A DNA stretch of 64,000 nucleotides from an uncultured Actinomycetota bacterium (GTDB taxonomy: Bacteria > Actinomycetota > UBA4738 > HRBIN12): assembly GCA_963842295.1 (NCBI GenBank), contig CAWJFY010000007.1:180136-244135 (forward strand), in the 5' to 3' direction. Made by a program: the position numbers and the translations under genes. The stretch's first letter is position 1. Every line of letters starts with the position of its first letter. The notes under the pieces were generated by a model. That model saw only the letters and a list, made by a program, of their open reading frames with translations. It was not told the DNA's origin and did not search any database. Shown here piece after piece: positions 48,191-59,787 of this stretch.

Positions 48191-48286
48191 CGACGACTCC
48201 TCGCAGGAGGATGTCCCGCGAGCCTCGCGAACGAGGGCCCTCCCGAGGGGAGGGCCTTCGCGCGACTTGCGGCAGGACGCGGATCG

Positions 48287-48634
48287 TGGAGGTGGCGGGA
48301 ATCGAACCCGCGTGACAGGGCGACCGTCTGGATCTTCTCCGGGCGCATCCGGTGGGTAGATCTCGCCTCGGGCCTCCCACCGGCGGAGGGGCCCTCGGCC
48401 AGCCCGGGTGAGATGTCCCTCGGAGGCCCCCGGACGGAACCTCCTCGGTGAGGCCTGCTTGCGATGCCCTGTCCGGGCCGCAGGCCCTCCCGGACGGACA
48501 GCTACCTATCTGCTAGGCAGCGAGCGCGTACTCTTCGTTGGCGCTTGTGTTGTTCCGGCGTTTTACGAGACTCCGGAGATCTCGGCCCGCTTCTCCCAGG
48601 CGATAACCGCCCTGCTCGAAGCCAGTACACCCCC
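48287..48634 (-). ncRNA. ssrA: tmRNA (ssrA), 348 nt, tag reading frame ending ...GCC AAC GAA GAG TAC GCG CTC GCT GCC TAG (ANEEYALAA*)
   Basis: 5' GGGGGUGUACUGGCUUCGAGCAGGG parallels E. coli GGGGCUGAUUCUGGAUUCGACGGG. 3' GCGGGUUCGAUUCCCGC-CACCUCC-A has a G3·U70 acceptor. YALAA-type tag with TAG stop at 48513-48515. smpB lies about 1.5 kb away, beyond the decarboxylase gene. Confidence 0.85.
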
Positions 48635-48672: not shown

Positions 48673-50094
48673 TCATCGATACGTGTCCCCGAGCTCCCGG
48701 ACCACGTCCACGATCAGATCCACGTCTTCGGGACGGTTGCGCCAGTTGACCGCCGCCGGCCGGAACGCGACCTTCCCGTCGTACTCGGTCATGCCGAAGA
48801 AGACCCGCCCGTCGAGGATCGCCTCCTCCCCGATCTTGCGATTCAGCTCGTCCAGGCGATCCTCCGTGTAGCCGCTCGGGTGGTAGCGGAAACACACGAT
48901 GTTCAGACGCACGTCCGCCAGCCGCTCGAGATCCGGCTCCTCGTCGACCCGCCGAGCGAGGTGCCGCGCTAGGTCGAGATGCTTCTCGACGATCGCCTCG
49001 TAGCCACTCCGCCCGTACGCGCGAAGGGTCGCCCACACGGTGAACGCCCGTGCCCGTCGCGACATCTCGGGCCCAAGGAACCCCCAGGTCGGCTTCGGCC
49101 CCAATGGGTCGGGGAGGTACGCAGCGCCGGACGTGAAGACGGGCGCCTGCAGCGCCGGGTCCCTCACGAATGCGAAACCGCAGTCATAGGGAACGTTCAG
49201 CCACTTGTGGCCGTCGGCGATCACCGAGTCCGCGCGTTCCACGCCCTCGACGAGATGGAGCGACCGATCCGAGAGGGCGGCGAAGAGTCCGAACGCGCCG
49301 TCCACGTGGAGCCAGGCGCCGTGACGCTCCGCGAGGTCGGCCATCGCGGCCAGCGGGTCGAAGTCGCCGGCGTTCACCTCTCCGGCGCTCGCGATCACGA
49401 CGGCGGGCGCGTCGCCGAGGGCCTTGAGCTCGCGTTCCAGAGCCGCGAGGTCCAGCCGCCCGATCCCGTCCGCCGCGAGCTTCCGAACGGCATCCCGCCC
49501 CAGTCCCAGCATCGCGAGCGCCTTCGTGTCGCTCGGATGCACGTAGCCCGAGCCGAAGACGGGCATCCGCGGTAGTCCGCCGAGGCCCTCCACATCGACG
49601 TCCACGCCCTGTCGAAGCCCCCACCATCGCCGGGCGCAGGCCAGCGCGGTGAAGTTCGCCATGGTTGCGCCGGTGGTGAGGACTCCACCCCACGACTGCG
49701 GCAGCCCGAACAGCTCCTTCAACCAGCCGAGCGCGATCGACTCGAGATGCCCGCCGAGCGGCGTGGCTACCCAGGCGCCCGGGTTCTGGTCCCATGTCGA
49801 GGTGAGCCAGTCCGCGCCGAGGGCCGCCGGCGTCGTCCCACCGTTGACGAAGTGGAAGAACTTCGGCCCGGCAGAGTGCACCAGCCCGCCGCCGCCCTCG
49901 ATCAACTCCTGCAAGGCCGCGATCGCTCCGACGCCGTCCTCGGGGAGCGATCCCACGAAGGATGCCGCGGCGTCCTCCGCCTGGGGATCGCGGACGGGAC
50001 GATCTTCCACGCCGTCGAGGTACTTCCGAGCCTCATCCGCCACGAAGGCGAGGACCGTATCCAGCTCGTCCGCGTCCGGTGGCGTGGGTGACAT
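48673..50094 (-). CDS. Group II PLP-dependent decarboxylase (second paralogue)
   Basis: SVIADGHKWLNVPYDCG (PLP lysine) and the Pyridoxal_deC layout. Confidence 0.75.
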   Translation of the reverse strand: MSPTPPDADELDTVLAFVADEARKYLDGVEDRPVRDPQAEDAAASFVGSLPEDGVGAIAALQELIEGGGGLVHSAGPKFFHFVNGGTTPAALGADWLTSTWDQNPGAWVATPLGGHLESIALGWLKELFGLPQSWGGVLTTGATMANFTALACARRWWGLRQGVDVDVEGLGGLPRMPVFGSGYVHPSDTKALAMLGLGRDAVRKLAADGIGRLDLAALERELKALGDAPAVVIASAGEVNAGDFDPLAAMADLAERHGAWLHVDGAFGLFAALSDRSLHLVEGVERADSVIADGHKWLNVPYDCGFAFVRDPALQAPVFTSGAAYLPDPLGPKPTWGFLGPEMSRRARAFTVWATLRAYGRSGYEAIVEKHLDLARHLARRVDEEPDLERLADVRLNIVCFRYHPSGYTEDRLDELNRKIGEEAILDGRVFFGMTEYDGKVAFRPAAVNWRNRPEDVDLIVDVVRELGDTYR

Positions 50095-50111: not shown

Positions 50112-50582
50112 TCAGCGGCGACGTCCGAGCTCTCGTCGCATCTCGCGCTCATGCTCCCGCTCGGCGATGGCCTGACGTTTCTCATGGCTCCGTCTGCCTC
50201 GCGCGAGCGCGAGCTCCACCTTCGCGAGCCCGTGGGTGAAATACACACGCAGCGGCACGAGCGCGAGCCGGTCCTGCTGCTGCGCGTCCGTGAGCTTCGA
50301 GATCTCCTGGCGGTGCAGGAGGAGCTTCCGCGGCCGCACGGGCAGGTGCGACTTCTTGTCTCCCTGCTCATACGGCGGGATGTGCATCCCTTCCAGCCAG
50401 GCCTCGCCGTCCCGCACGCGAGCGAACGCCTCCGCGAGCGACGCCCGTCCCCCGCGGAGGGACTTCACCTCATCGCCCGTCAGTGCGATGCCGGCCTCGA
50501 ACGTCTCGAGGATCGAGTAGTCGTGACGCGCTTTGCGGTTGGAGGCGACCGTCTTCTCGCCCTCGCGATCCTTGCGGCCCAT
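50112..50582 (-). CDS. smpB: SsrA-binding protein
   Basis: NRKARHDYSILETFEAGIALTGDEVKSLR is typical of SmpB. It lies in the ssrA neighbourhood, separated from it by the decarboxylase gene. Confidence 0.85.
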   Translation of the reverse strand: MGRKDREGEKTVASNRKARHDYSILETFEAGIALTGDEVKSLRGGRASLAEAFARVRDGEAWLEGMHIPPYEQGDKKSHLPVRPRKLLLHRQEISKLTDAQQQDRLALVPLRVYFTHGLAKVELALARGRRSHEKRQAIAEREHEREMRRELGRRR

Positions 50583-52277: not shown

Positions 52278-54719
52278 GTGGACGCCGCGGACGCGAGCAG
52301 GCTCGCGACGCGCGCGGCACCGCGGATCGCCGTCTGGCTGGGGCCCGCCCTGATCGCCGGCTCCGTCCTGTTCGCCCTCCGCGGGTTCGCCTTCGGAAGC
52401 GGACTGACCAACCAGCACCCTGACCTCCTGACATTCTGGCTGCCGCGCTGGTCCTTCCTCGGCGATTCGGTCGTTGCGGGTCAGATCCCGTTGTGGAACC
52501 CCTTCGAGATGGCCGGGTATCGCTTCGCCGCAGACCCGCAGAGCGGGTGGCTGTACGCCCCCCCGATGCTCTTCTTCTCGCTGTTCTCGCCGGGGTCGGC
52601 CTTGCGCCTGTTCATCGTCTTCAACCCGCTGCTCGCCGGTCTCGGGCTGTACGTGTTCCTTCGGAGGGAAGCTTTGGGGAGAGCGGCGGCATCGGCCGGG
52701 GGCCTGGTCCTCGCCATGATGATGTCGACGTCGACGATCGCGATCTCACTGCCGTTCGCCGGAGCGCTGGCCTGGACGACCCTCCTCCTCGTGGCCGCTT
52801 CGGGCTACCGAAGGGCCGAGCGATGGTCTGGCCGGCTCGCTTGGCTCGCGCTCGGTGCGTTCTCGTGGCTGCAGGTGGCAGCGGCGCACATGAGCCACGG
52901 GCTCGTGATCGCGACTGCGTTCGCGACCGCCTATCTGGCGGCCGCCGCGATCGCCGACGCACGGACGGGGACGGTCAGCGCAAGATCCGCAGCGGGCCGG
53001 GCGGCGCTGTTCGCCCTGGTCCTGCCGCTCGCCGCCCTCCCGATCCTCGTGCCCCACATCGACTTCCTCGGCGAGTCGAGCCTTCGAGGCGGCTACGGCG
53101 CGCTCGGAGACACGGGGCAGTCGGAGGTGGGCGATCCGCTCGGCTCGAACGGTATCTGGGCGGCCTGGCCCCTGGGCTTCGGCGCCGCGCCGGGCGCCTA
53201 CGCGGGTGCGGCGGCGCTCGCGTGCGCCCTCCTCGCGGCTCGCGCTCGCCGGCTGCGGACGCTCGTCGTCGCGACGGGGGGGCTCGCGCTCACAGCCTAC
53301 GTGCTCACCTCCCCGTTGCTCGTGAGCGCAGCCTGGTTCCGAACCCTCGTGCTCGAGATCCCCTTCGGTGACGTCTATCTCCACAACCCGGGGCGCCTGC
53401 GCTACGTCGCCGTGCTGGCTTTGCCGATCCTGGCTGCGGCGGGCCTCCACGGACTCGTGGATCGCCCGCTCTCCGCTCGTGCGGCGATCACCTGGCTCGG
53501 CGCGGCGGCCTTCATCTTCGTCGTCTGGCCACTCCTCGCCGGAGGGGATCTCGTCCGGTTCGCGATGATCGCGGCGATGCTCCTCGTCGCCGGACCGCTC
53601 CTCTACGGGTTGGGCACGCGACGATGGCGATGGGCCTCGTCATCCGCCGTCGTCGGCGTGCTCACCGTCGAGTTGCTGGTGAGCGCCGTCTACGCGCAGT
53701 CCTACGAGGGCGGCACGATCTTCACGGGGTTGGAAACGGGCGACCATCCCAGCCTCGTGCCACAGGTGCTCCGGTATCCAACGCTGGATGAGGCCACCTT
53801 CCTCGCACCCACGCCGATCGTGAAGCACATCAGGGCGGAGCCCGGACGCTACGCCACCTGGGCTCCCCCGGCGGCATACTTCGAAAAGGGCTACCTCTGG
53901 ATGAAGTCTCCGGCCGACTGGCCGGCTCTCGCACCCACCCGAGGCACGCTGTTCGGCATCCCGGACGCCCTGGGCTACAACCCCGTGCAGCTTCCTCGCT
54001 ATTGGCGCTTCATCCGCGCCACCAACGAGCTCTCGGTGTTCTACAACGCGTCGGTACTCAACCTGCCGTCCGCCGAGGACGTCCGTCTGCTCGGTCTGCG
54101 GTACCTGATCGTCCCGACGGGATTGGAACCCCCCGTCGATGGCCGCGTGGTCGAGGAGGCCGACCTCTATTCGCTCTGGGAACTCGACGACGCGCAGCCC
54201 CCGGCGACCGTTTCTCCCGTGATCGAGTTCGTGGATGACCAGCGTTCGGCGATGAGCGCGATCACGACGGGAGGCTTCGATCCATCGGAGCAGGCGGTGA
54301 TCGAGTTGCCCTCCGATGTGTTCGCGTGCGTCGGCGATTGCTCGCCCCCCGCCGATGCCTCCACCAGGACGATCTCCGGTTCCGAGCTGGTGATCCAGAT
54401 CCCGGCGACGGATGGAGGCATCCTCACGATCCGGAACGCGTACGACGCGGGATGGGGGGCCGAGATCGACGGCCGTCCGGCCCGCACCCTTCCGGTCGAT
54501 GGATTCCTACAAGGGGTCGTCCTCGGACCGAGCGCGAGGGAGGTCGTACTCACCTATCACGACGACGCGGTCATGCTCGGCCTCGCGCTCGGCGCCGCGA
54601 TCTGGGCGACGCTCCTCGCCGCGCCCTTCCTCGTGCTCATGCTCGAGCGTCGCGCTGCTGCCGGGAACATCGCTCCACGTCGCTCTACGCCGTCTCGCCC
54701 ACGGCCGCCCGTCGCCTGA
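52278..54719 (+). CDS. Large polytopic membrane protein (YfhO-like; about 12+ TM with C-terminal extracytoplasmic domain)
   Basis: 813 aa with many hydrophobic helices through about residue 520, then a soluble domain and a final TM. Confidence 0.45.
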   Translation: MDAADASRLATRAAPRIAVWLGPALIAGSVLFALRGFAFGSGLTNQHPDLLTFWLPRWSFLGDSVVAGQIPLWNPFEMAGYRFAADPQSGWLYAPPMLFFSLFSPGSALRLFIVFNPLLAGLGLYVFLRREALGRAAASAGGLVLAMMMSTSTIAISLPFAGALAWTTLLLVAASGYRRAERWSGRLAWLALGAFSWLQVAAAHMSHGLVIATAFATAYLAAAAIADARTGTVSARSAAGRAALFALVLPLAALPILVPHIDFLGESSLRGGYGALGDTGQSEVGDPLGSNGIWAAWPLGFGAAPGAYAGAAALACALLAARARRLRTLVVATGGLALTAYVLTSPLLVSAAWFRTLVLEIPFGDVYLHNPGRLRYVAVLALPILAAAGLHGLVDRPLSARAAITWLGAAAFIFVVWPLLAGGDLVRFAMIAAMLLVAGPLLYGLGTRRWRWASSSAVVGVLTVELLVSAVYAQSYEGGTIFTGLETGDHPSLVPQVLRYPTLDEATFLAPTPIVKHIRAEPGRYATWAPPAAYFEKGYLWMKSPADWPALAPTRGTLFGIPDALGYNPVQLPRYWRFIRATNELSVFYNASVLNLPSAEDVRLLGLRYLIVPTGLEPPVDGRVVEEADLYSLWELDDAQPPATVSPVIEFVDDQRSAMSAITTGGFDPSEQAVIELPSDVFACVGDCSPPADASTRTISGSELVIQIPATDGGILTIRNAYDAGWGAEIDGRPARTLPVDGFLQGVVLGPSAREVVLTYHDDAVMLGLALGAAIWATLLAAPFLVLMLERRAAAGNIAPRRSTPSRPRPPVA

Positions 54720-55801
54720 GCTCGCCCTCGATGAACCGATCGATCTCGCCGCCGAGGACGCGAGACGGGTCGCCCACCTCGACGTCCGTCCGATGGTCCT
54801 TCACCATCTGGTACGGGGCGAGCACGTAGGAGCGGATCTGCGATCCGAAGTCCACGGCCTTCCGCTCTCCCCGGAGCTCGTTCATCTCCTCTTCTCGCCT
54901 GCGGCGCTCGAGCTCGGCCAGGCGAGCTTTCAAGATCCGCATCGCGACCGCACGGTTCTGGAGCTGCGAGCGTTCGTTCTGACACGCCACGACGATCCCC
55001 GACGGGATGTGCGTGATCCGCACGGCCGAGTCCGTCGTGTTGACCGACTGCCCGCCAGGCCCGGACGAGCGGAAGACGTCGATCCGAAGGTCCTCCTCGG
55101 GGATCTCGACCTCCTCCTCCTCGGACCGCTCGAGCAGCGGGATCACGTCGAGAGCGGCGAAGGAGGTATGTCGCCGCTTCTGCGCGTCGAAAGGACTGAT
55201 CCGGACCAGACGATGGACGCCCCGCTCGGCCGACAGGAGCCCGTAGGCGTTCGCCCCGTGGAGCATGAACGTCGCGGACTTGATCCCAGCTTCCTCGCCG
55301 TGGTGGATCTCATCCACTTCCATCCGGAAACCGCGCTTCTCCGCCCACCTCGCGTACATCCGGAGCAGCATGTCCGCCCAGTCCTGCGACTCGGTGCCCC
55401 CGGCGCCGGCCTGCAAGGTTGCGATCGCATCGTGGTCGTCGTACGGACCCGAGAACAGCGCCGCGAGCTCGACCGTCTCGAGCTCCTGCTCGAGACGGTC
55501 GAGCCCTGATTCCAGCTCTTTCGTCAGCTCCGGATCGGCTTCGTCCGCGAGCAGCTCATCTATCGCCTCGAGGTTCTGGAGGGTGCTCTCGAGGCGGTCG
55601 TGGCGGTCGACCTGCTCGTGCAAGCGGGAGAGGCGCCGGGTCAGCTCCTCCGCGCGGGACTGGTCGTCCCACAGCCCGGGGTCCGAGGTCTGTCGCTCCA
55701 GGTCACCCAGCTGGGCACGCTTGCCGTCGACGTCAAAGGAACTCCTTGGCTGCCACGATGCGGTCCCGGAGCTTGCGGAGCCGTTCGGTGTGATCGCTCA
55801 T
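54685..55801 (-). CDS. prfB: Peptide chain release factor 2, expressed via programmed +1 frameshift
   Basis: The 22-codon frame-0 segment MSDHTERLRKLRDRIVAAKEFL ends CUU UGA C. The +1 frame continues DVDGKRAQLGDLE... to the SGPGGQ-containing body. Confidence 0.85.
55732..55747 (-). promoter_or_regulatory. prfB +1 frameshift cassette: internal SD-like AAGGAG, 3-nt spacer, CUU UGA C
   Basis: The minus strand reads ...GCC AAG GAG UUC CUU UGA CGU... This is the classical RF2 autoregulatory frameshift site. Confidence 0.8.
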
Positions 55802-55950
55802 GCCGTCGATTCTAGTGGTCGTCCCTCGAGTTCCCGCTGGTCGCGGGGTCGGGAGTGATGAACGTCACCCTCGTGAGGTGCCGTGGACCACCGCCCGCCG
55901 CGGGCCGGCTCCCTATCCTCGGGGGTCAGTCACCACGAAAGGACGACCCG

Positions 55951-56175
55951 GTGAGCACAAGCATCGAGACCATCAGCCCGGGGTTCGCATGGAACGCGAC
56001 GCGGGTGGCGAGTGTACTGATGATCGTGATCGTCGCCGTCATCGCGCTGGTCTTCTGGCCGGCGTTCGAGACGTCGGAACCAGGAGCGCCGAAGGGCCGG
56101 CAGACCAACGGACTCGCGGCGCCGCACGAACAAGTCGTGGTCAACGGAGAAGCCTGTCCGCAGTGCCTCCCGTGA
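55951..56175 (+). CDS. Small single-pass membrane protein ending VVNGEACPQCLP
   Basis: GTG at 55951 after AAGGACGA, one TM (VASVLMIVIVAVIALVFWP), and a C-terminal motif shared with the next gene. Confidence 0.4.
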   Translation: MSTSIETISPGFAWNATRVASVLMIVIVAVIALVFWPAFETSEPGAPKGRQTNGLAAPHEQVVVNGEACPQCLP

Positions 56176-56468
56176 CCTGAGAGCGAGAGGTACCCCCCTC
56201 TCATCGGCGGCCGGCCGGGCCGAAGGAGCCCGGCCGGCCGCCTCCTTTTCATAGGTCCGGCGCCGGATCCATGGGTCCCGGGCCGGAGGCCCGATCTCCC
56301 ACGCTGGCGCCCGCTCGCCACGCGCCCGAGGCCGAGCGGCGGCACCGGATCGGTGTGGCGAACGTCACCACCGGCCGGTGCGTGTCGGCACCGACTTCAC
56401 GACGACCCGTCCGTAGGGTCGCCTCATCAGGCAAAGGTCCCCAGGGGACCGGAGAGGAAGGGGGAGCC

Positions 56469-57017
56469 ATGAGCGCGCAGGGAGGAACCCTCCAGAGGCG
56501 AGGGACCATCGAGCTGCCGATGTGGCCCGTGGCCGTCCTCGTGGTCGTCGCGGTCGCTGCGGCGGTCGGGATGACGTTGCTGAGGGACGCGGGGCAGACG
56601 ACGTTCGTGACATCGGTCACGGACAGCGAACGGCTCGCCAACTCCACCGCCGCGGTCCGTGAGCAGGGGGCAGTCGCACCGGCGATCCCCGCGATCCGGC
56701 CGATCGATCTCACGGTGCTGGAGAACTCGAGCGCAGCGGTGCGTGAGCAGGGAGCGATGCTCCCCGCGACCGTGGGCGTCTCCCACGTGGCGCCGTCGCT
56801 GCACTCGCGGGGCTTCGCCGGCTTCGAGAACCCCGGTGCCTACATCACCCAGGCACCGGCGTACGCGCCCGGCCTGGAGTACGCCGGCGCCTACATCACC
56901 GAGGCTCCGGCCTTCGCACCCGGCCTCGAGAACCCGGGTGCCTACCCGGCCGAGGTCGTTGCACCGGCAGAGGGCCCGATCATCGTGAACGGCGAGGCCT
57001 GCATGCAGTGCAGGTGA
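56469..57017 (+). CDS. Single-pass membrane protein with internal tandem repeats, ending IIVNGEACMQCR
   Basis: ATG after GGAGAGGAAGGGGGAG, TM WPVAVLVVVAVAAAVGMTLL, and repeats xNS(T/S)AAVREQGA x2 and (E)NPGAY(I)T(Q/E)APA(Y/F)APGLE x2-3. Confidence 0.45.
   Translation: MSAQGGTLQRRGTIELPMWPVAVLVVVAVAAAVGMTLLRDAGQTTFVTSVTDSERLANSTAAVREQGAVAPAIPAIRPIDLTVLENSSAAVREQGAMLPATVGVSHVAPSLHSRGFAGFENPGAYITQAPAYAPGLEYAGAYITEAPAFAPGLENPGAYPAEVVAPAEGPIIVNGEACMQCR
56830..56960 (+). repeat. About 48-nt imperfect tandem repeats inside the 56469-57017 CDS
   Basis: ...cccggtgcctacatcacccaggcaccggcgtacgcgcccggcctggag / gccggcgcctacatcaccgaggctccggccttcgcacccggcctcgag... Confidence 0.5.
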
Positions 57018-57041
57018 TGCCTCCCGTCACGGACACACGAA

Positions 57042-57068
57042 GGGGCCGGCGCGACGCGCCGGCCCTTT
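57042..57068. terminator. GC-rich hairpin (about 10-bp stem) between convergent genes, followed by TTT
   Basis: GGGGCCGGCGCG-a-CGCGCCGGCCC then TTTCAG, in the 64-nt gap between the small-protein stop and the secA stop. Confidence 0.4.
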
Positions 57069-57081
57069 CAGCGTGCCGCGA

Positions 57082-59787
57082 CTACGCCACGGCGCCGTGG
57101 CACTTCTTGTACTTCCGCCCGCTGCCGCACGGGCAGGGCGCGTTCCGCGGCACCTTGTCGCTGATGACCTGGTTGGGATTCGCTTCCTGCACGGTCCCGG
57201 ATGCCGCCGCCTCTTCCTCGTCCCCATGGCTCTCGCGGACCCGGTTCACCTTGGGCGCGGATGCCCGTCGCTGCTGCTGCTCCGGCCGAACCAACTCCAC
57301 CCGGTAGATGTAGCGCACGAACTCCGTTTGGATCGTGGACGTGAGCTCCTCGAACATGTCGAACGCTTCGCGCCGGTACTCCGTGATCGGGTCCTTCTGG
57401 GCGTAGCTCCGCAGGTAGATGCCTTCCTGCAGGTAATCCATCTCGTACAGGTGTTCGCGCCAGCGTGTGTCGATGATGTTCAGCAGGACGACCCGCTCGA
57501 GCTCTCGCATCATCGTCTCGCCGAGCGCCTCTTCCCTCGCCGCGTAGGCGGCCAGCGCGTCCTCGACGAACGCCGCTTGCAGCGCCTCCGAGTCGGCGAT
57601 CTCCCCTACCTGCTCCTTCGTCAAGGAGACGGGATAGATCTCCGACATGGCGGTGAGAAGCCCTTCTCGGTCCCACTCCTCCGCGAAGACATCCGGCGGG
57701 CAGTAGGTCGCGACGGTTGCCTCCACGACATCACGCACGAACCCGATCGCCTCCTCGTTCAGATCCCCACCCTCGAGGATCTTCCGGCGCTCGCCGTAGA
57801 TCACCGTGCGCTGCCCGTTCATGACCTCGTCGTACTTGAGGACGTTCTTCCGGCGCTCGTAGTTGAGCTCCTCGATCTGCCCCTGTGCGTTCTGGACCGC
57901 GCGCGTGACCATCTTCGCCTCGATCGGCTCGTCCTCCGGCCACTTCAGCCGTTCCATGATCGAGGCGACCCGATCGGACGCGAACATCCGCATCAGGTCG
58001 TCCTCGAGAGACAGGTAGAACGCCGACGCGCCCGGGTCGCCCTGGCGCCCGGACCGTCCGCGGAGCTGGTTGTCGATCCGCCGTGACTCGTGCCGTTCGG
58101 TGCCCAGCACGTAGAGTCCGCCCAGCTCGACGACCTCCTCGTGCTCCGCGTCCGTCTGCGTCCTGAACTTCGCGAAGATCGGCTCGTACTCGGCCTCGTA
58201 GGCGGCTCGCTCCTCCTCGTCCATCTCGAACAGCAGGTAGCGGTCGTTGTCGAAGTCTCGCGCGGCCATCTCCTGACGCGCGAGGTACTCGGGGTTGCCG
58301 CCGAGGAGGATGTCGACGCCGCGCCCCGCCATGTTCGTGGCGACGGTGACCGCGCCCTTGCGGCCGGCCTGGGCGACGATCATCGCCTCCTTCTCGTGGT
58401 TCTTGGCGTTCAGGACGTGATGCTTCACGCCACGGCGATCGAGCATCGTGGACAGCTTCTCGGACTTCTCGATCGAGACGGTCCCCACCAGGATCGGCTG
58501 GCCCGTCTCATTGCGCTCGATGATGTCCTCGATGAGAGAGTTCCACTTGGCCTCTTCGTTCTTGAAGATCGCGTCCTGCAGGTCCTCACGGATCATCGGT
58601 CGGTTCGTCGTGATCTCGGTGACGCCGAGGGTGTAGGTCTCCTCGAACTCGGTCAGCTGCGTCTTGGCGGTCCCCGTCATCCCCGCGAGCTTGTCGTACA
58701 TCTTGAAGTAGTTCTGGATCGTGATGGTCGCGAGGGTCTGGTTCTCCTCCTTGATCCGCACGCCTTCTTTCGCCTCGATCGCCTGGTGCAGCCCCTCGGA
58801 ATACCGGCGGCCCTCCAGCACCCGGCCCGTGAACTCGTCGACGATCTTCACCTCGCCGCTCTGGACCACGTACTCGACATCGCGCTTGTACAGCTCCTTC
58901 GCACGCAGCGAGTTGTGAAGGTGGTGGACCAGCATCGTGTTCTCGTGGTCGTAGAGGTTGTCGATGTTCAGCAGGGACTCCACCTTGGCGACCCCCGCCT
59001 CCATCACCGCGACCTGGAACTTCGCCTCCTCGACCTCGTAGTGCTCGTCGCGGGTGAGCTGCGGGGCGATCCGGGCGAACGTCTGGTACCACTTGGCGCT
59101 GTCCTGGACCATGCCGCTGATGATCAGCGGAGTCCTCGCCTCGTCGATGAGGATCGAATCGACCTCGTCCACGATCGCGAAGTGGTGGCCGCGCTGCACG
59201 GTGTGCTCCAACCGCATCGCCATGTTGTCGCGGAGATAGTCGAACCCGAACTCGTTGTTGGTGCCGTACGTGATGTCGGCCGCATAGGCGGGACGGCGCT
59301 GCTCGGGGCTCATCTGAGACTGGATCAGGCCCACCTCGAGCCCGAGGAACCGATAGATCCCACCCATCCACTCCGAGTCGCGCTTGGCCAGATAGTCGTT
59401 GACCGTGACGAGATGGACCCCTTTGCCCTCGAGCGCGTTCAGGTAGCCGGGCAGTGTCGAGACGAGGGTCTTGCCCTCGCCGGTACGCATCTCCGCGATG
59501 CTGCCTCGATGCAACGCGGCGCCCCCCATCAGCTGGACGTCGAAGTGGCGCTGTCCGATCGTGCGGCGGGCGGCTTCACGGGTGGTGGCGAACGCCTCCG
59601 GGAGGAGGTCGTCGAGGGGTTCGCCGTTCTCCAGACGCTGCCGGAACTCGACGGTCTTGTGGGCCAGCTCGTCGTCCGGGAGGTCCTCGATCTCGAGCTC
59701 CCAGGTGTTCACGAGCTTGGCGAGCTGCTCGAGCTCCTTGCGCCGACGGCCCTCGCCGATGTTGCTGAACTTGTCGATCAGGGGCAA
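57082..59787 (-). CDS. secA: Preprotein translocase subunit SecA
   Basis: [12 protein letters not shown]-terminus, DEAD-like motor motifs (TGEGKTL), and C-terminal zinc finger [14 protein letters not shown]. Confidence 0.9.

What the first reader, a model, noticed from the sequence alone, without database searches (positions are those of the whole stretch)
55951..57017. Two adjacent small single-pass membrane proteins sharing an identical C-terminal (V/I)VNGEAC-x-QC motif; the longer one is built from tandem repeats
Gene 1 (about 75 aa) ends …EQVVVNGEACPQCLP* and gene 2 (182 aa) ends …GPIIVNGEACMQCR*. Both have a short cytoplasmic N-terminus, one TM helix and an extracytoplasmic tail, so the shared Cys-x-x-Cys C-terminus is presented outside the cell. 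Gene 2 additionally contains two repeat families (ANSTAAVREQGA…/ENSSAAVREQGA… and ENPGAYITQAPAYAPGLE/YAGAYITEAPAFAPGLE/NPGAYPAE), encoded by about 48-nt DNA repeats. This looks like a small paralogous family with a conserved C-terminal CxxC 'head' on a variable repeat stalk, possibly a metal- or thiol-redox-binding surface module or a substrate for C-terminal processing. I do not recognise it as a described family. It sits between prfB and secA, outside the conserved ssrA–smpB–ftsXE–prfB block.
Basis: seen in the sequence. Interest (0 to 1): 0.6.

Follow-up and report, generated by a model that had tools for sequence, protein, structure and literature searches.

The report
Paired small membrane proteins, shared Cys-pair tip
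Two neighbouring genes in an uncultured soil actinobacterial lineage encode small membrane-anchored proteins that end in the same short hairpin carrying two cysteines; they are real, conserved and belong to no described family, but their function remains a reasoned guess.

Summary
g1 (55951-56175, 74 aa) and g2 (56469-57017, 182 aa) are genuine coding genes. Each has one N-terminal transmembrane helix and the C-terminal motif hydrophobic-V-N-G-E-A-C-x-Q-C.

Both are conserved, always as a pair between prfB and secA, in 19 species-level genomes of uncultured Actinomycetota and in many metagenome contigs. No match was found in Pfam, NCBIfam, PHROGs, PADLOC or the PDB. A g1 profile finds about six clusters among 1.84 billion representative proteins.

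Profile comparison aligns only the last 14 residues of g1 and g2 (E 7e-7). Nearly all members have exactly two cysteines, both in this tip. The g2 stalk is predicted disordered and is built from repeat modules that change in number and kind between relatives.

Each gene has its own homologous promoter with a CRP-type palindrome (GTGA-N6-TCAC). g1 is followed by an invariant C-rich hairpin plus a terminator.

Best reading: tandem paralogues, probably N-in/C-out, displaying a thiol-based (disulfide or metal) docking tip at different distances from the membrane. The anatomy is well supported; the mechanism is inferred only. It is an undescribed, lineage-restricted family of moderate interest.

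The parts
55855..55868 (+). CRP-type palindrome GTGA-TGAACG-TCAC upstream of g1
   Evidence: Strict GTGA-N6-TCAC in 30 of 37 g1 loci and the relaxed form in 37 of 37. The composite pattern (palindrome plus TANNNT at fixed distance) hits only upstream of g1 and g2 in the window, 2 hits against 0.07 expected.
55888..55919 (+). Inferred g1 core promoter: -35-like CCACCGC (55888-55894) and -10-like TATCCT (55914-55919)
   Evidence: A TANNNT hexamer lies 59-60 nt after the start of the palindrome in 28 of 37 g1 loci. The layout matches that upstream of g2. Inferred, no transcription start data.
55951..56175 (+). g1 coding sequence, 74 aa (GTG start, TGA stop), with AAGGA ribosome-binding site at 55939-55943
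   Evidence: GC3 0.81; 73 homologues, almost all 74 aa; dN/dS 0.40.
56005..56067 (+). g1 transmembrane helix (residues 19-39), with invariant I-A-L-x-F-W-P-x-F
   Evidence: AlphaFold2 helix 10-38, pLDDT up to 93; invariant columns; uncharged span 18-39.
56134..56172 (+). g1 tip VVVNGEACPQCLP: short hairpin around the N-G turn, then C-x-Q-C-L-P at the C-terminus. Nearly invariant His59 lies 10 residues before the first Cys.
   Evidence: V64, C69, Q71 and C72 invariant; G66, H59, L73 and P74 at 90% or more. Position logo. Weak hairpin in the model. Aligned to the g2 tip.
56185..56202 (+). Invariant C-rich hairpin in the g1 3' UTR: GAGAGG-UACCCC-CCUCUC
   Evidence: Identical in all loci aligned, although g1 protein identity falls to 57%. 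Fold z-score -4.6 together with the terminator. In 28 metagenome contigs it lies directly after a recognisable g1 3' end wherever upstream sequence was available and intact (25 of 28). No Rfam family at E up to 1.
56206..56249 (+). g1 intrinsic terminator: perfect 15-bp G+C stem followed by a T tract
   Evidence: Compensatory changes in L008 keep the stem paired.
56355..56368 (+). CRP-type palindrome upstream of g2 (GTGG-CGAACG-TCAC, one half-site degenerate)
   Evidence: Relaxed form present in 23 of 31 g2 loci. Each of the two g2 copies in L016 has its own.
56387..56419 (+). Inferred g2 core promoter: -35-like GGCACCGAC (56387-56395) and -10-like TAGGGT (56414-56419)
   Evidence: TANNNT lies exactly 59 nt after the start of the palindrome in 23 of 23 loci with the site. 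Both blocks are strongly conserved in the alignment. Inferred.
56436..56466 (+). g2 leader: small hairpin GGTCCC-CAG-GGGACC (56436-56450) and G-rich ribosome-binding site GGAAGGGGGAG (56456-56466)
   Evidence: Alignments show ATCCC/GGGAT in most loci against GTCCC/GGGAC here. RNAalifold support is weak.
56469..57017 (+). g2 coding sequence, 182 aa (ATG start, TGA stop)
   Evidence: GC3 0.88; 427 database relatives of 117-232 aa.
56520..56588 (+). g2 transmembrane helix (residues 18-40), preceded by the conserved N-terminal peptide MSAQGGTLQRRGTIELP
   Evidence: AlphaFold2 helix 18-40. M1, Q4, G5, P17 and P20 invariant; R10 and R11 at 90% or more.
56633..56755 (+). Stalk module A, two copies (ANSTAAVREQGA / ENSSAAVREQGA): 39-nt repeats 84 nt apart
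   Evidence: Copy number is 0, 1 or 2 among 120 relatives.
56772..56795 (+). Conserved VG(I/V)SHVAP block in the g2 stalk
   Evidence: G103, S105, H106, V107 and P109 at 90% or more. His is replaced by Gln or missing in divergent members.
56818..56970 (+). Stalk module B: three tandem 51-nt (17-aa) copies of GFENPGAYITQAPAYAP, the third degenerate
   Evidence: There are 0-4 NPGAY-like units among 120 relatives. pLDDT is below 50.
56976..57014 (+). g2 tip PIIVNGEACMQCR: hairpin at residues 171-173 and 176-178, then C-x-Q-C-R at the C-terminus
   Evidence: Block mean pLDDT 73 for residues 171-180. G175, C178, Q180, C181 and R182 at 90% or more. Aligned to the g1 tip.
57039..57069 (.). G+C-rich inverted repeat between the convergent g2 and secA, probably a two-way terminator
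   Evidence: Inverted repeat I4, 15-nt arms, 93% complementary.

Best explanation
g1 and g2 are tandem paralogues of a lineage-restricted, undescribed family of small single-pass membrane proteins.

Shown:
- Each has a short conserved N-terminal peptide, one transmembrane helix, and a C-terminal tip. The tip is a short hairpin around an Asn/Asp-Gly turn, followed at once by the only two cysteines of the protein (C-x-Q-C, then one or two residues and the stop).
- g1 carries the tip on an 18-residue linker.
- g2 carries it on a stalk of about 130 residues that is acidic, almost Lys-free, rich in Ala/Gly/Pro and predicted disordered. The stalk is made of repeat modules that are gained, lost and swapped between relatives.
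- Each gene has its own copy of one promoter architecture.

Inferred:
- The proteins sit N-in/C-out, so the tips lie in the oxidising cell envelope.
- The cysteine pair acts as a thiol-based docking site. The reading I commit to is that it is oxidised to a disulfide, within the chain or between two tips. This locks the tip into the conserved surface that binds a partner, while the stalk sets how far from the membrane the tip reaches.
- The promoter is a CRP-type operator centred roughly 60-65 bp upstream of the inferred transcription start, so both genes would be switched together by one dimeric CRP/FNR-family regulator.
For: Real genes under selection.

Family-wide conservation and fixed synteny: 19 species plus metagenome contigs.

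Paralogy:
- The tips align at profile level.
- Both genes share an upstream architecture: palindrome, -35-like block, then TANNNT 59-60 nt after the palindrome start.
- Different codons encode the shared residues.

Tip as the functional core:
- Exactly two Cys in 118 of 120 g2 and 68 of 73 g1 members, at a fixed distance from the C-terminus.
- The Cys pair survives in divergent g2 members whose stalk is entirely different.
- The hairpin is the only part of the g2 ectodomain with appreciable confidence, block mean pLDDT 73.

Disordered, modular stalk.

Topology: the net charge of the N flank exceeds that of the C flank in 51 of 63 g1 and 98 of 114 g2 members. An even number of Cys in exported proteins fits oxidative folding in Actinobacteria (my own knowledge: Daniels et al. 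2010, J Biol Chem).

CRP consensus TGTGA-N6-TCACA and class I activation from upstream of -35: PMC10187061.
Against: - No experiment or homology ties the tip to any chemistry.
- The charge bias is small: about +0.7 to +1 on the N flank against -0.6 on the C flank, and the K+R counts are equal in many members.
- Both AlphaFold2 models are of low overall confidence, mean pLDDT 64 and 55.
- A subfamily ends NPCPEACQLARRG, with C-x3-C spacing and no hairpin motif, so the exact geometry is not universal.
- A bare C-x-x-C could equally bind a metal.
- Promoter elements and the transcription start are inferred from sequence only. No CRP gene was seen in the 64 kb window.
- No partner protein is identified. 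The genes are not in an operon with anything informative.
Confidence: 0.35

Rival explanations
1. The tip is a metal site. The C-x-x-C pair binds Cu(I) or Zn(II), with the nearby conserved His as a third ligand or with a second tip supplying two more thiolates in trans. That would resemble the Rad50 zinc hook or the CD4-Lck zinc clasp. g1 and g2 would then act as membrane-tethered metal buffers or chaperones, or dimerise through the metal.
For: - One isolated Cys pair per chain is a half-site.
- There is a nearly invariant His in g1, 10 residues before the first Cys (69 of 73), and a conserved His in the g2 GISHVAP block.
- Some g2 members have C-x3-C, the spacing used by Sco copper proteins (the Sco motif is from my own knowledge).
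- Two co-regulated paralogues carrying the same half-site would fit trans coordination.
Against: - The g2 His is replaced by Gln or absent in divergent members.
- The invariant Gln between the cysteines is not typical of zinc knuckles (usually C-P-x-C-G) or HMA sites (M-x-C-x-x-C).
- No metal transporter, chaperone or metal-sensing regulator is nearby. The flanks are prfB, secA, an MFS transporter and a thiamine-pyrophosphate enzyme.
- The operator resembles a CRP site, not a known metal-regulator box.
Confidence: 0.2
2. The topology is the reverse (N-out/C-in). The Cys pair would then be a cytoplasmic zinc-knuckle half-site or an Fe-S ligand pair, and the proteins would be membrane tethers for a cytoplasmic partner.
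For: - The positive-inside signal is weak, and K+R counts in the two flanks are equal in 62 of 114 g2 members.
- C-x-x-C preceded by a hairpin is the shape of a zinc knuckle.
- The N-terminal peptides are highly conserved, which shows that both ends matter.
Against: - Net flank charge favours N-in in 81% of g1 and 86% of g2 members.
- The g2 C-terminal portion is acidic, almost free of Lys (0.4%) and rich in Ala/Gly/Pro/Ser/Thr. That composition is typical of exported actinobacterial linkers, and a long disordered hypervariable segment is unusual in the cytoplasm.
- There are only two Cys per chain, not four.
Confidence: 0.1
3. The proteins are precursors. The conserved C-terminus is a recognition or processing signal for cleavage, a RiPP-like modification, or covalent attachment through the cysteines, rather than a binding tip.
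For: The motif sits at a fixed distance from the stop codon, with family-specific last residues: L-P in g1 and R in g2. The tip is the most conserved extramembrane element.
Against: No maturase, protease, sortase-like or radical-SAM gene accompanies the pair in any of the 19 loci; the neighbours are always the 813-aa membrane protein, prfB and secA. The N-terminal TM helix is too long and too conserved for a leader peptide. There is no match to RiPP or sorting-signal models in Pfam or NCBIfam.
Confidence: 0.07
4. The ORFs are not translated. The conservation would then reflect RNA or regulatory DNA, for example the conserved 3' hairpin and the leader regions.
For: The most strongly conserved stretch of the whole locus is non-coding: the hairpin after g1. 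No expression data are available.
Against: - Codon-position GC pattern.
- dN/dS well below 1, and region-specific.
- Third positions are the most variable: majority fraction 0.79 against 0.91 at second positions.
- The reading frame is preserved across 73 and 427 relatives despite in-frame repeat gain and loss.
- Ribosome-binding sites sit at the right distance from both start codons.
Confidence: 0.03

Closest known systems
Membrane-anchored thiol:disulfide oxidoreductases of Gram-positive envelopes (DsbA-like MdbA, ResA/CcmG, CcmH)
   Same: One N-terminal membrane anchor, and a C-x-x-C presumed to face the envelope.
   Different: Those proteins carry the C-x-x-C at the start of a helix inside a thioredoxin fold of about 100 residues or more (a helical bundle in CcmH). 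Here there is no fold at all, only a hairpin at the extreme C-terminus, and no Pfam hit.
Sco/SenC and other envelope copper chaperones
   Same: N-terminal TM anchor; a Cys pair (C-x3-C in Sco, as in one g2 subfamily) plus a distal His as candidate ligands.
   Different: Sco has a thioredoxin-like domain, which is absent here. The His is not universal in g2. There are no cytochrome oxidase or copper genes nearby.
Rad50 zinc hook and CD4/CD8-Lck zinc clasp (half-site C-x-x-C joined in trans by one Zn)
   Same: A single C-x-x-C per chain on a turn, with no second ligand pair in the same chain. Two different chains carry the same half-site.
   Different: Those are cytoplasmic or nuclear systems with no sequence relationship to this family. 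Trans coordination is untested here. This is a functional analogy only.
Immunoglobulin hinge C-P-P-C (paired inter-chain disulfides)
   Same: C-P-x-C, as in g1 (C-P-Q-C), could join two parallel chains covalently.
   Different: A eukaryotic secreted protein. Analogy only.
Zinc ribbon / zinc knuckle modules
   Same: A hairpin followed by C-x-x-C.
   Different: A zinc ribbon needs two knuckles (four ligands) in one chain. These proteins have exactly two Cys.
6C RNA and other C-rich-loop small RNAs of Actinobacteria (relevant to the g1 3' hairpin only)
   Same: A stable hairpin exposing a run of six C, followed by a terminator. The loop could pair with G-rich ribosome-binding sites such as that of g2 (duplex -16.9 kcal/mol, top 0.45% of window positions).
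   Different: No match to Rfam 6C or any other family at E up to 1. There is only one C-rich loop. It is part of an mRNA 3' end.

Membership tests
Thioredoxin-fold thiol:disulfide oxidoreductases (DsbA/MdbA, ResA, CcmG) | Thioredoxin-fold domain detectable by profile or fold | tested here: not met
   No Pfam or NCBIfam match at E up to 1. The AlphaFold2 models show a TM helix plus a hairpin only.
Thioredoxin-fold thiol:disulfide oxidoreductases (DsbA/MdbA, ResA, CcmG) | C-x-x-C at the N-terminus of an alpha-helix, with a cis-Pro loop opposite | tested here: not met
   The Cys pair lies in the last 5-6 residues, directly after a hairpin.
Sco/SenC copper chaperones | C-x3-C plus a distal His within a thioredoxin-like domain | tested here: not met
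   No such domain. Spacing is C-x2-C in nearly all members. His is not universal in g2.
Heavy-metal-associated (HMA) domain | M-x-C-x-x-C loop in a beta-alpha-beta-beta-alpha-beta fold | tested here: not met
   No Pfam hit. The motif is (E/Q)-(A/P)-C-x-Q-C at the C-terminus.
Zinc ribbon | Two C-x-x-C (or C/H) knuckles in one chain | tested here: not met
   Exactly two Cys per chain in 118 of 120 g2 and 68 of 73 g1 members.
Trans half-site metal clasp (Rad50 hook type): works-like only | Two chains each donate C-x-x-C to one metal ion | not testable with these tools
   Complex prediction and metal-binding assays were not available.
c-type haem attachment site | C-x-x-C-H | tested here: not met
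   The residue after the second Cys is Leu in g1 (66 of 73) and Arg in g2 (106 of 120).
Twin-arginine (Tat) signal peptide | S/T-R-R-x-F-L-K motif, a mildly hydrophobic h-region and an A-x-A cleavage site | tested here: inconclusive
   g2 has a nearly invariant R10-R11, but it is followed by G-T-I-E-L. The pair is reduced to G-R or a single R in some members, and the hydrophobic span is about 23 residues. g1 has no R-R. No Tat predictor was available.
RiPP precursor peptide | A modifying enzyme or transporter gene conserved next to the precursor | tested here: not met
   The neighbours in all 19 loci are the 813-aa membrane protein, prfB and secA.
CRP/FNR-family operator (for the upstream palindromes) | Palindrome TGTGA-N6-TCACA | tested here: met
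   GTGA-N6-TCAC in 30 of 37 g1 upstream regions. Relaxed form GTG(A/G)-N6-(T/A)CAC in 37 of 37 g1 and 23 of 31 g2 regions. Consensus taken from PMC10187061.
CRP/FNR-family operator (for the upstream palindromes) | Bound by a CRP-family protein, with an effect on transcription | not testable with these tools
   No binding or expression data. No CRP gene found in the window by an F-helix motif scan.
Rfam 6C RNA (for the g1 3' hairpin) | Match to the covariance model (two C-rich loops) | tested here: not met
   No match at E up to 1 in 55500-57400, nor at gathering score in the whole window.

The most novel reading that the evidence does not exclude
The pair is a new kind of envelope device. The two membrane-tethered chains, one short and one long with an adjustable disordered stalk, would join or exchange through identical C-terminal Cys-pair hooks, by a metal bridge or by disulfide exchange, and act as a ruler or latch across the cell wall. 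In addition, the g1 mRNA would be dual-function: its invariant C-rich 3' hairpin would pair with the G-rich ribosome-binding site of g2 and so couple the output of the two paralogues.
Probability: 0.1. Interest if true: 0.6.

Novelty: new variant of a known kind. Interest (0 to 1): 0.4.

Why it matters
If the reading is right, this is an undescribed family of envelope proteins from an uncultured soil actinobacterial lineage. It reduces a thiol or metal docking site to about a dozen residues at the very C-terminus and presents it on a stalk that evolves by module shuffling.

It would add to the catalogue of small membrane proteins, which annotation pipelines tend to miss or leave unnamed. It also offers a compact, testable model for how a bare C-x-x-C works outside a thioredoxin fold.

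The conserved cis-elements make the locus a tidy case of a tandem duplication that copied its regulation along with the gene. These are the CRP-type operator duplicated with each gene and the invariant C-rich 3' hairpin.

It does not bear on a long-standing open question. The organisms are uncultured, so direct tests need heterologous expression.

Tried and rejected
Searches that found nothing:
- Pfam, NCBIfam, PADLOC and PHROGs scans gave no credible hit. The only matches were a 12-bit TM-region hit to NF042931 and a 14-bit hit to an unnamed PHROG.
- PDB profile searches returned only TM-helix noise at E above 0.2.
- The g1 profile against 1.84 billion representative proteins found only its own narrow family plus repetitive or hydrophobic false positives (P0194, P0200-P0203). 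It did not reach g2, because the shared part is too short.
- Rfam gave no family for the g1 3' hairpin or the g2 leader. The only hits, on the g2/secA terminator, had E values of 0.3-0.5.

Ideas considered and dropped:
- ECF-sigma promoter reading of GAAC...CGT. The spacing to a CGT element is not conserved between loci, whereas a CRP-type palindrome plus TANNNT at fixed distance is.
- A 9-nt stop-bearing insertion explaining the TGCCTCCCGTCAC after the g2 stop. The match is present in only a few loci.
- Tat signal: poor fit.
- Haem site: no His after the second Cys.
- N-glycosylation sequons (WNATR in g1, NST/NSS in g2). They would lie on opposite sides of the membrane, and the sequon is lost in divergent g2 members.
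- RNA structure in the g2 leader. RNAalifold gave only weak support: -7 kcal/mol and one compensatory pair.
- The g1 3' loop pairing with the g2 ribosome-binding site. The energy is favourable (-16.9 kcal/mol) but not unique, top 0.45% of window positions.
- A search of the window for CRP, thioredoxin-like, HMA or CxxCH motifs found nothing relevant.

Not attempted:
- Fold searches with the two models, because their confidence is too low to give meaningful matches.
Full report
**1. What is in the sequence**

The region holds two same-strand ORFs between the divergently transcribed prfB and the convergently transcribed secA.
- g1 runs 55951-56175 (GTG start, 74 aa).
- g2 runs 56469-57017 (ATG start, 182 aa).

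Third-position GC is 0.81 for g1 and 0.88 for g2, against 0.52-0.69 at positions 1 and 2. The longer upstream ORF extensions and the intergenic DNA show no such pattern, 0.71-0.76 at all three positions. Ribosome-binding sites sit at suitable distances from both starts: AAGGA before g1 and GGAAGGGGGAG before g2.

The C-terminal motif (V/I)VNGEAC-x-QC occurs at exactly these two places in the six-frame translation of the 64 kb window.

The g2 repeats are real.
- Three tandem 51-nt (17-aa) units lie at 56818-56970.
- A 39-nt repeat with 84-nt spacing lies at 56633-56671 and 56717-56755.

The flanking genes are confirmed as RF2, SecA and SmpB by Pfam and tmRNA by Rfam.

**2. Both genes are conserved, and only in a narrow lineage**

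g1 has 73 relatives in the 5.8-billion-protein collection, nearly all exactly 74 aa and 62-96% identical. g2 has 427 relatives of 117-232 aa. None carries an informative name or a Pfam domain. The four g1 relatives with non-generic JGI labels (P0145, P0157, P0159, P0184) have labels that disagree with one another, and one g2 hit (P0070, 232 aa) carries PF00591 over only 76% query coverage.

A g1 profile searched against 1.84 billion representative proteins found about six genuine clusters and nothing more distant.

A scan of one genome per GTDB species returned 19 loci, all uncultured Actinomycetota. In every locus long enough to see it, the order is the same: an 813-aa membrane protein (+), prfB (-), g1 (+), g2 (+), secA (-).

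Across these genomes the proteins differ in how far they have diverged from the window copy:

| Protein | Identity to window copy |
|---|---|
| SecA | 89-98% |
| RF2 | 84-97% |
| g1 | 57-92% |
| g2 | 40-95% |

(These exclude L017, where frameshifts break the matches into segments.) The pair therefore evolves much faster than its housekeeping neighbours. It is still under purifying selection: g1 dN/dS is 0.40 overall, 0.27-0.33 in the N-terminus, TM helix and tip, and 0.58 in the linker.

**3. Anatomy of the proteins**

The g1 consensus is MSTSxETIRPGFAWNATRVASVLMVVIIAVIALVFWPAFETSDA..P..RQANGLAAPHxPIVVNGEACxQCLP.
- Invariant residues include W14, A16, T17, R18, I31, A32, L33, F35, W36, P37, F39, V64, C69, Q71 and C72.
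- AlphaFold2 gives a confident helix at 10-38 and a weak hairpin around N65-G66.

g2 has four conserved elements.
- A strongly conserved N-terminal peptide, MSAQGGTLQRRGT.ELP.WP.
- A TM helix at residues 18-40.
- A VG(I/V)SHVAP block in the stalk.
- The tip P(I/V)(I/M)VNGE(P/A)CMQCR.

Between these lie modules whose number varies among 120 relatives: 0-2 copies of NSxAAVREQ and 0-4 NPGAY-like units. In 71 of them a WDSIGGPNEALHRQY block replaces the last NPGAY unit.

More divergent members have wholly different modules, such as DYVPATDFPGPYGVPVA, LVERFANSGAIPAAS and WT..QA.AYV.SLV. They keep the N-terminus, the TM helix and a C-terminal Cys pair. A few end NPCPEACQLARRG (C-x3-C) or CGQCTTD.

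The g2 ectodomain is predicted disordered (pLDDT below 50), except for the terminal hairpin at 171-173/176-178, where the block mean pLDDT is 73. It is acidic, with 0.4% Lys and rich in Ala/Gly/Pro/Val/Ser/Thr.

**4. The shared tip**

Profile-profile comparison of the two families aligns only the last 14 columns (probability 92%, E 7e-7).

Nearly every member has exactly two cysteines, both in the tip and at a fixed distance from the stop codon: 118 of 120 for g2 and 68 of 73 for g1.

Within one genome the two tips share 3-9 of 11 residues. Many shared residues use different codons, 4 of 8 in the window, so gene conversion does not explain the similarity. The near-universal core is hydrophobic-x-G-x-x-C-x-Q-C.

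**5. Regulation was duplicated with the gene**

Upstream of both genes, in essentially all loci, the same layout recurs.
- A palindrome GTG(A/G)-N6-(T/A)CAC. It is strict GTGA-N6-TCAC in 30 of 37 g1 loci.
- A GTGC block.
- A CACCG(A/C)C block in the -35 position.
- A TANNNT hexamer 59-60 nt after the palindrome start. This is found in 28 of 37 g1 loci and in 23 of 23 g2 loci that have the site.

The composite pattern hits only these two places in the window, against 0.07 expected. In the 19 loci it hits only upstream of g1 or g2, including both g2 copies of L016.

The palindrome matches the CAP/CRP consensus TGTGA-N6-TCACA. Its inferred centre, about 60-65 bp upstream of the presumed start site, is in the range of class I activation (PMC10187061). 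That a CRP-family protein binds there is an inference.

g1 ends with its own strong terminator at 56206-56242. The two genes are therefore separate transcription units, probably co-regulated.

**6. An unexpected RNA element**

The 19 nt GAGAGGTACCCCCCTCTCA (hairpin 56185-56202), just after the g1 stop codon, are identical in all loci aligned. That makes them more conserved than the coding sequence.
- They form a 6-bp hairpin with a C-rich loop next to the terminator.
- In 28 metagenome contigs that carry the 19-mer, it lies directly after a recognisable g1 3' end in 25. In the other three, upstream sequence was missing (L030) or no g1 was recognised (L022, L047).
- It matches no Rfam family.
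- Its loop can pair with the G-rich ribosome-binding site of g2 at -16.9 kcal/mol, in the top 0.45% of window positions. This is suggestive, not specific.

**7. Mechanism**

Shown:
- Single-pass membrane proteins.
- Paralogy.
- A conserved Cys-pair hairpin at the extreme C-terminus.
- A disordered, modular stalk in g2.
- Separate but homologous promoters.

Inferred:
- N-in/C-out topology. The N flank is net positive and the C flank net negative in 81% of g1 and 86% of g2 members, but the margin is small.
- A thiol-based role for the tip.

I commit to a disulfide-locked or disulfide-linked docking tip in the oxidising envelope, with the stalk setting its reach (confidence 0.35).

The main rival is metal binding, possibly in trans between two tips (0.2). 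It is weakened by loss of the candidate His ligand in divergent g2 members. Lesser rivals are a cytoplasmic zinc-knuckle half-site (0.1), a processing or modification signal (0.07) and untranslated ORFs (0.03).

**8. Comparison with known systems**

The pair fails the defining features of thioredoxin-fold oxidoreductases, Sco, HMA domains, zinc ribbons, haem c sites and RiPP precursors (see the membership table).

The nearest functional analogies are half-site C-x-x-C clasps (Rad50 hook, CD4-Lck) and inter-chain C-P-P-C hinges. These are analogies, not memberships.

**9. Verdict**

This is an undescribed, lineage-restricted small-protein family with tidy cis-regulatory features. Interest is moderate (0.4). 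It is clearly real and unannotated, but the function is unknown, the organisms are uncultured, and there is no link to a major open question.

Noticed in passing
window 55732-55747 (- strand): prfB carries the classic programmed +1 frameshift site: AAGGAG, then CTT TGA C. The short first frame starts at ATG 55801 and the main frame continues into the 312-aa ORF listed at 54685-55623.
   Followed up: partly
window 56185-56249: An invariant C-rich hairpin plus terminator follows g1. It is more conserved than the gene itself, was found only in this context, and has no Rfam family. It may be a 3'-UTR-derived regulatory RNA or a stability element.
   Followed up: partly
window 55855-55868 and 56355-56368: CRP-type palindromes sit at the same distance from a TANNNT hexamer upstream of both genes. 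The g1 copy lies 54-67 nt upstream of the divergent prfB start codon and might also affect prfB.
   Followed up: partly
L016 6250-8800 and 8830-9970: In one genome, an RHS-repeat/Ntox21 toxin fragment (508 aa) and a 160-aa ORF, possibly its immunity protein, are inserted between g1 and g2. In the same genome g2 is duplicated in tandem, and each copy has its own palindrome.
   Followed up: partly
window 52278-54719: An 813-aa multi-pass membrane protein with no Pfam match at E up to 0.001 lies next to prfB. It is conserved in the same position in all 19 genomes at 69-95% identity.
   Followed up: no
window 55993-56001 (g1 N15-T17); 56640-56648 and 56724-56732 (g2): N-x-S/T sequons are conserved: WNATR is near-invariant in g1 (N15 in at least 90% of members), and NST/NSS occurs in each copy of g2 module A. 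This is probably coincidental. They would lie on opposite sides of the membrane, and the sequon is lost in divergent g2 members.
   Followed up: partly
window 48673-50094 (- strand): A pyridoxal-dependent decarboxylase gene (Pfam E 3e-51) lies between smpB (50112-50582) and the tmRNA gene (48284-48634). The ssrA-smpB pair is therefore not contiguous here.
   Followed up: no
window 57082-57140 (- strand): SecA ends with the zinc-binding SEC-C motif ([14 protein letters not shown]). Its stop codon faces the g2 stop across a shared G+C-rich inverted repeat at 57039-57069.
   Followed up: no
window 56436-56450: A small hairpin lies just upstream of the g2 ribosome-binding site, with an apparent compensatory change between loci (ATCCC/GGGAT against GTCCC/GGGAC). 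RNAalifold support is weak.
   Followed up: partly
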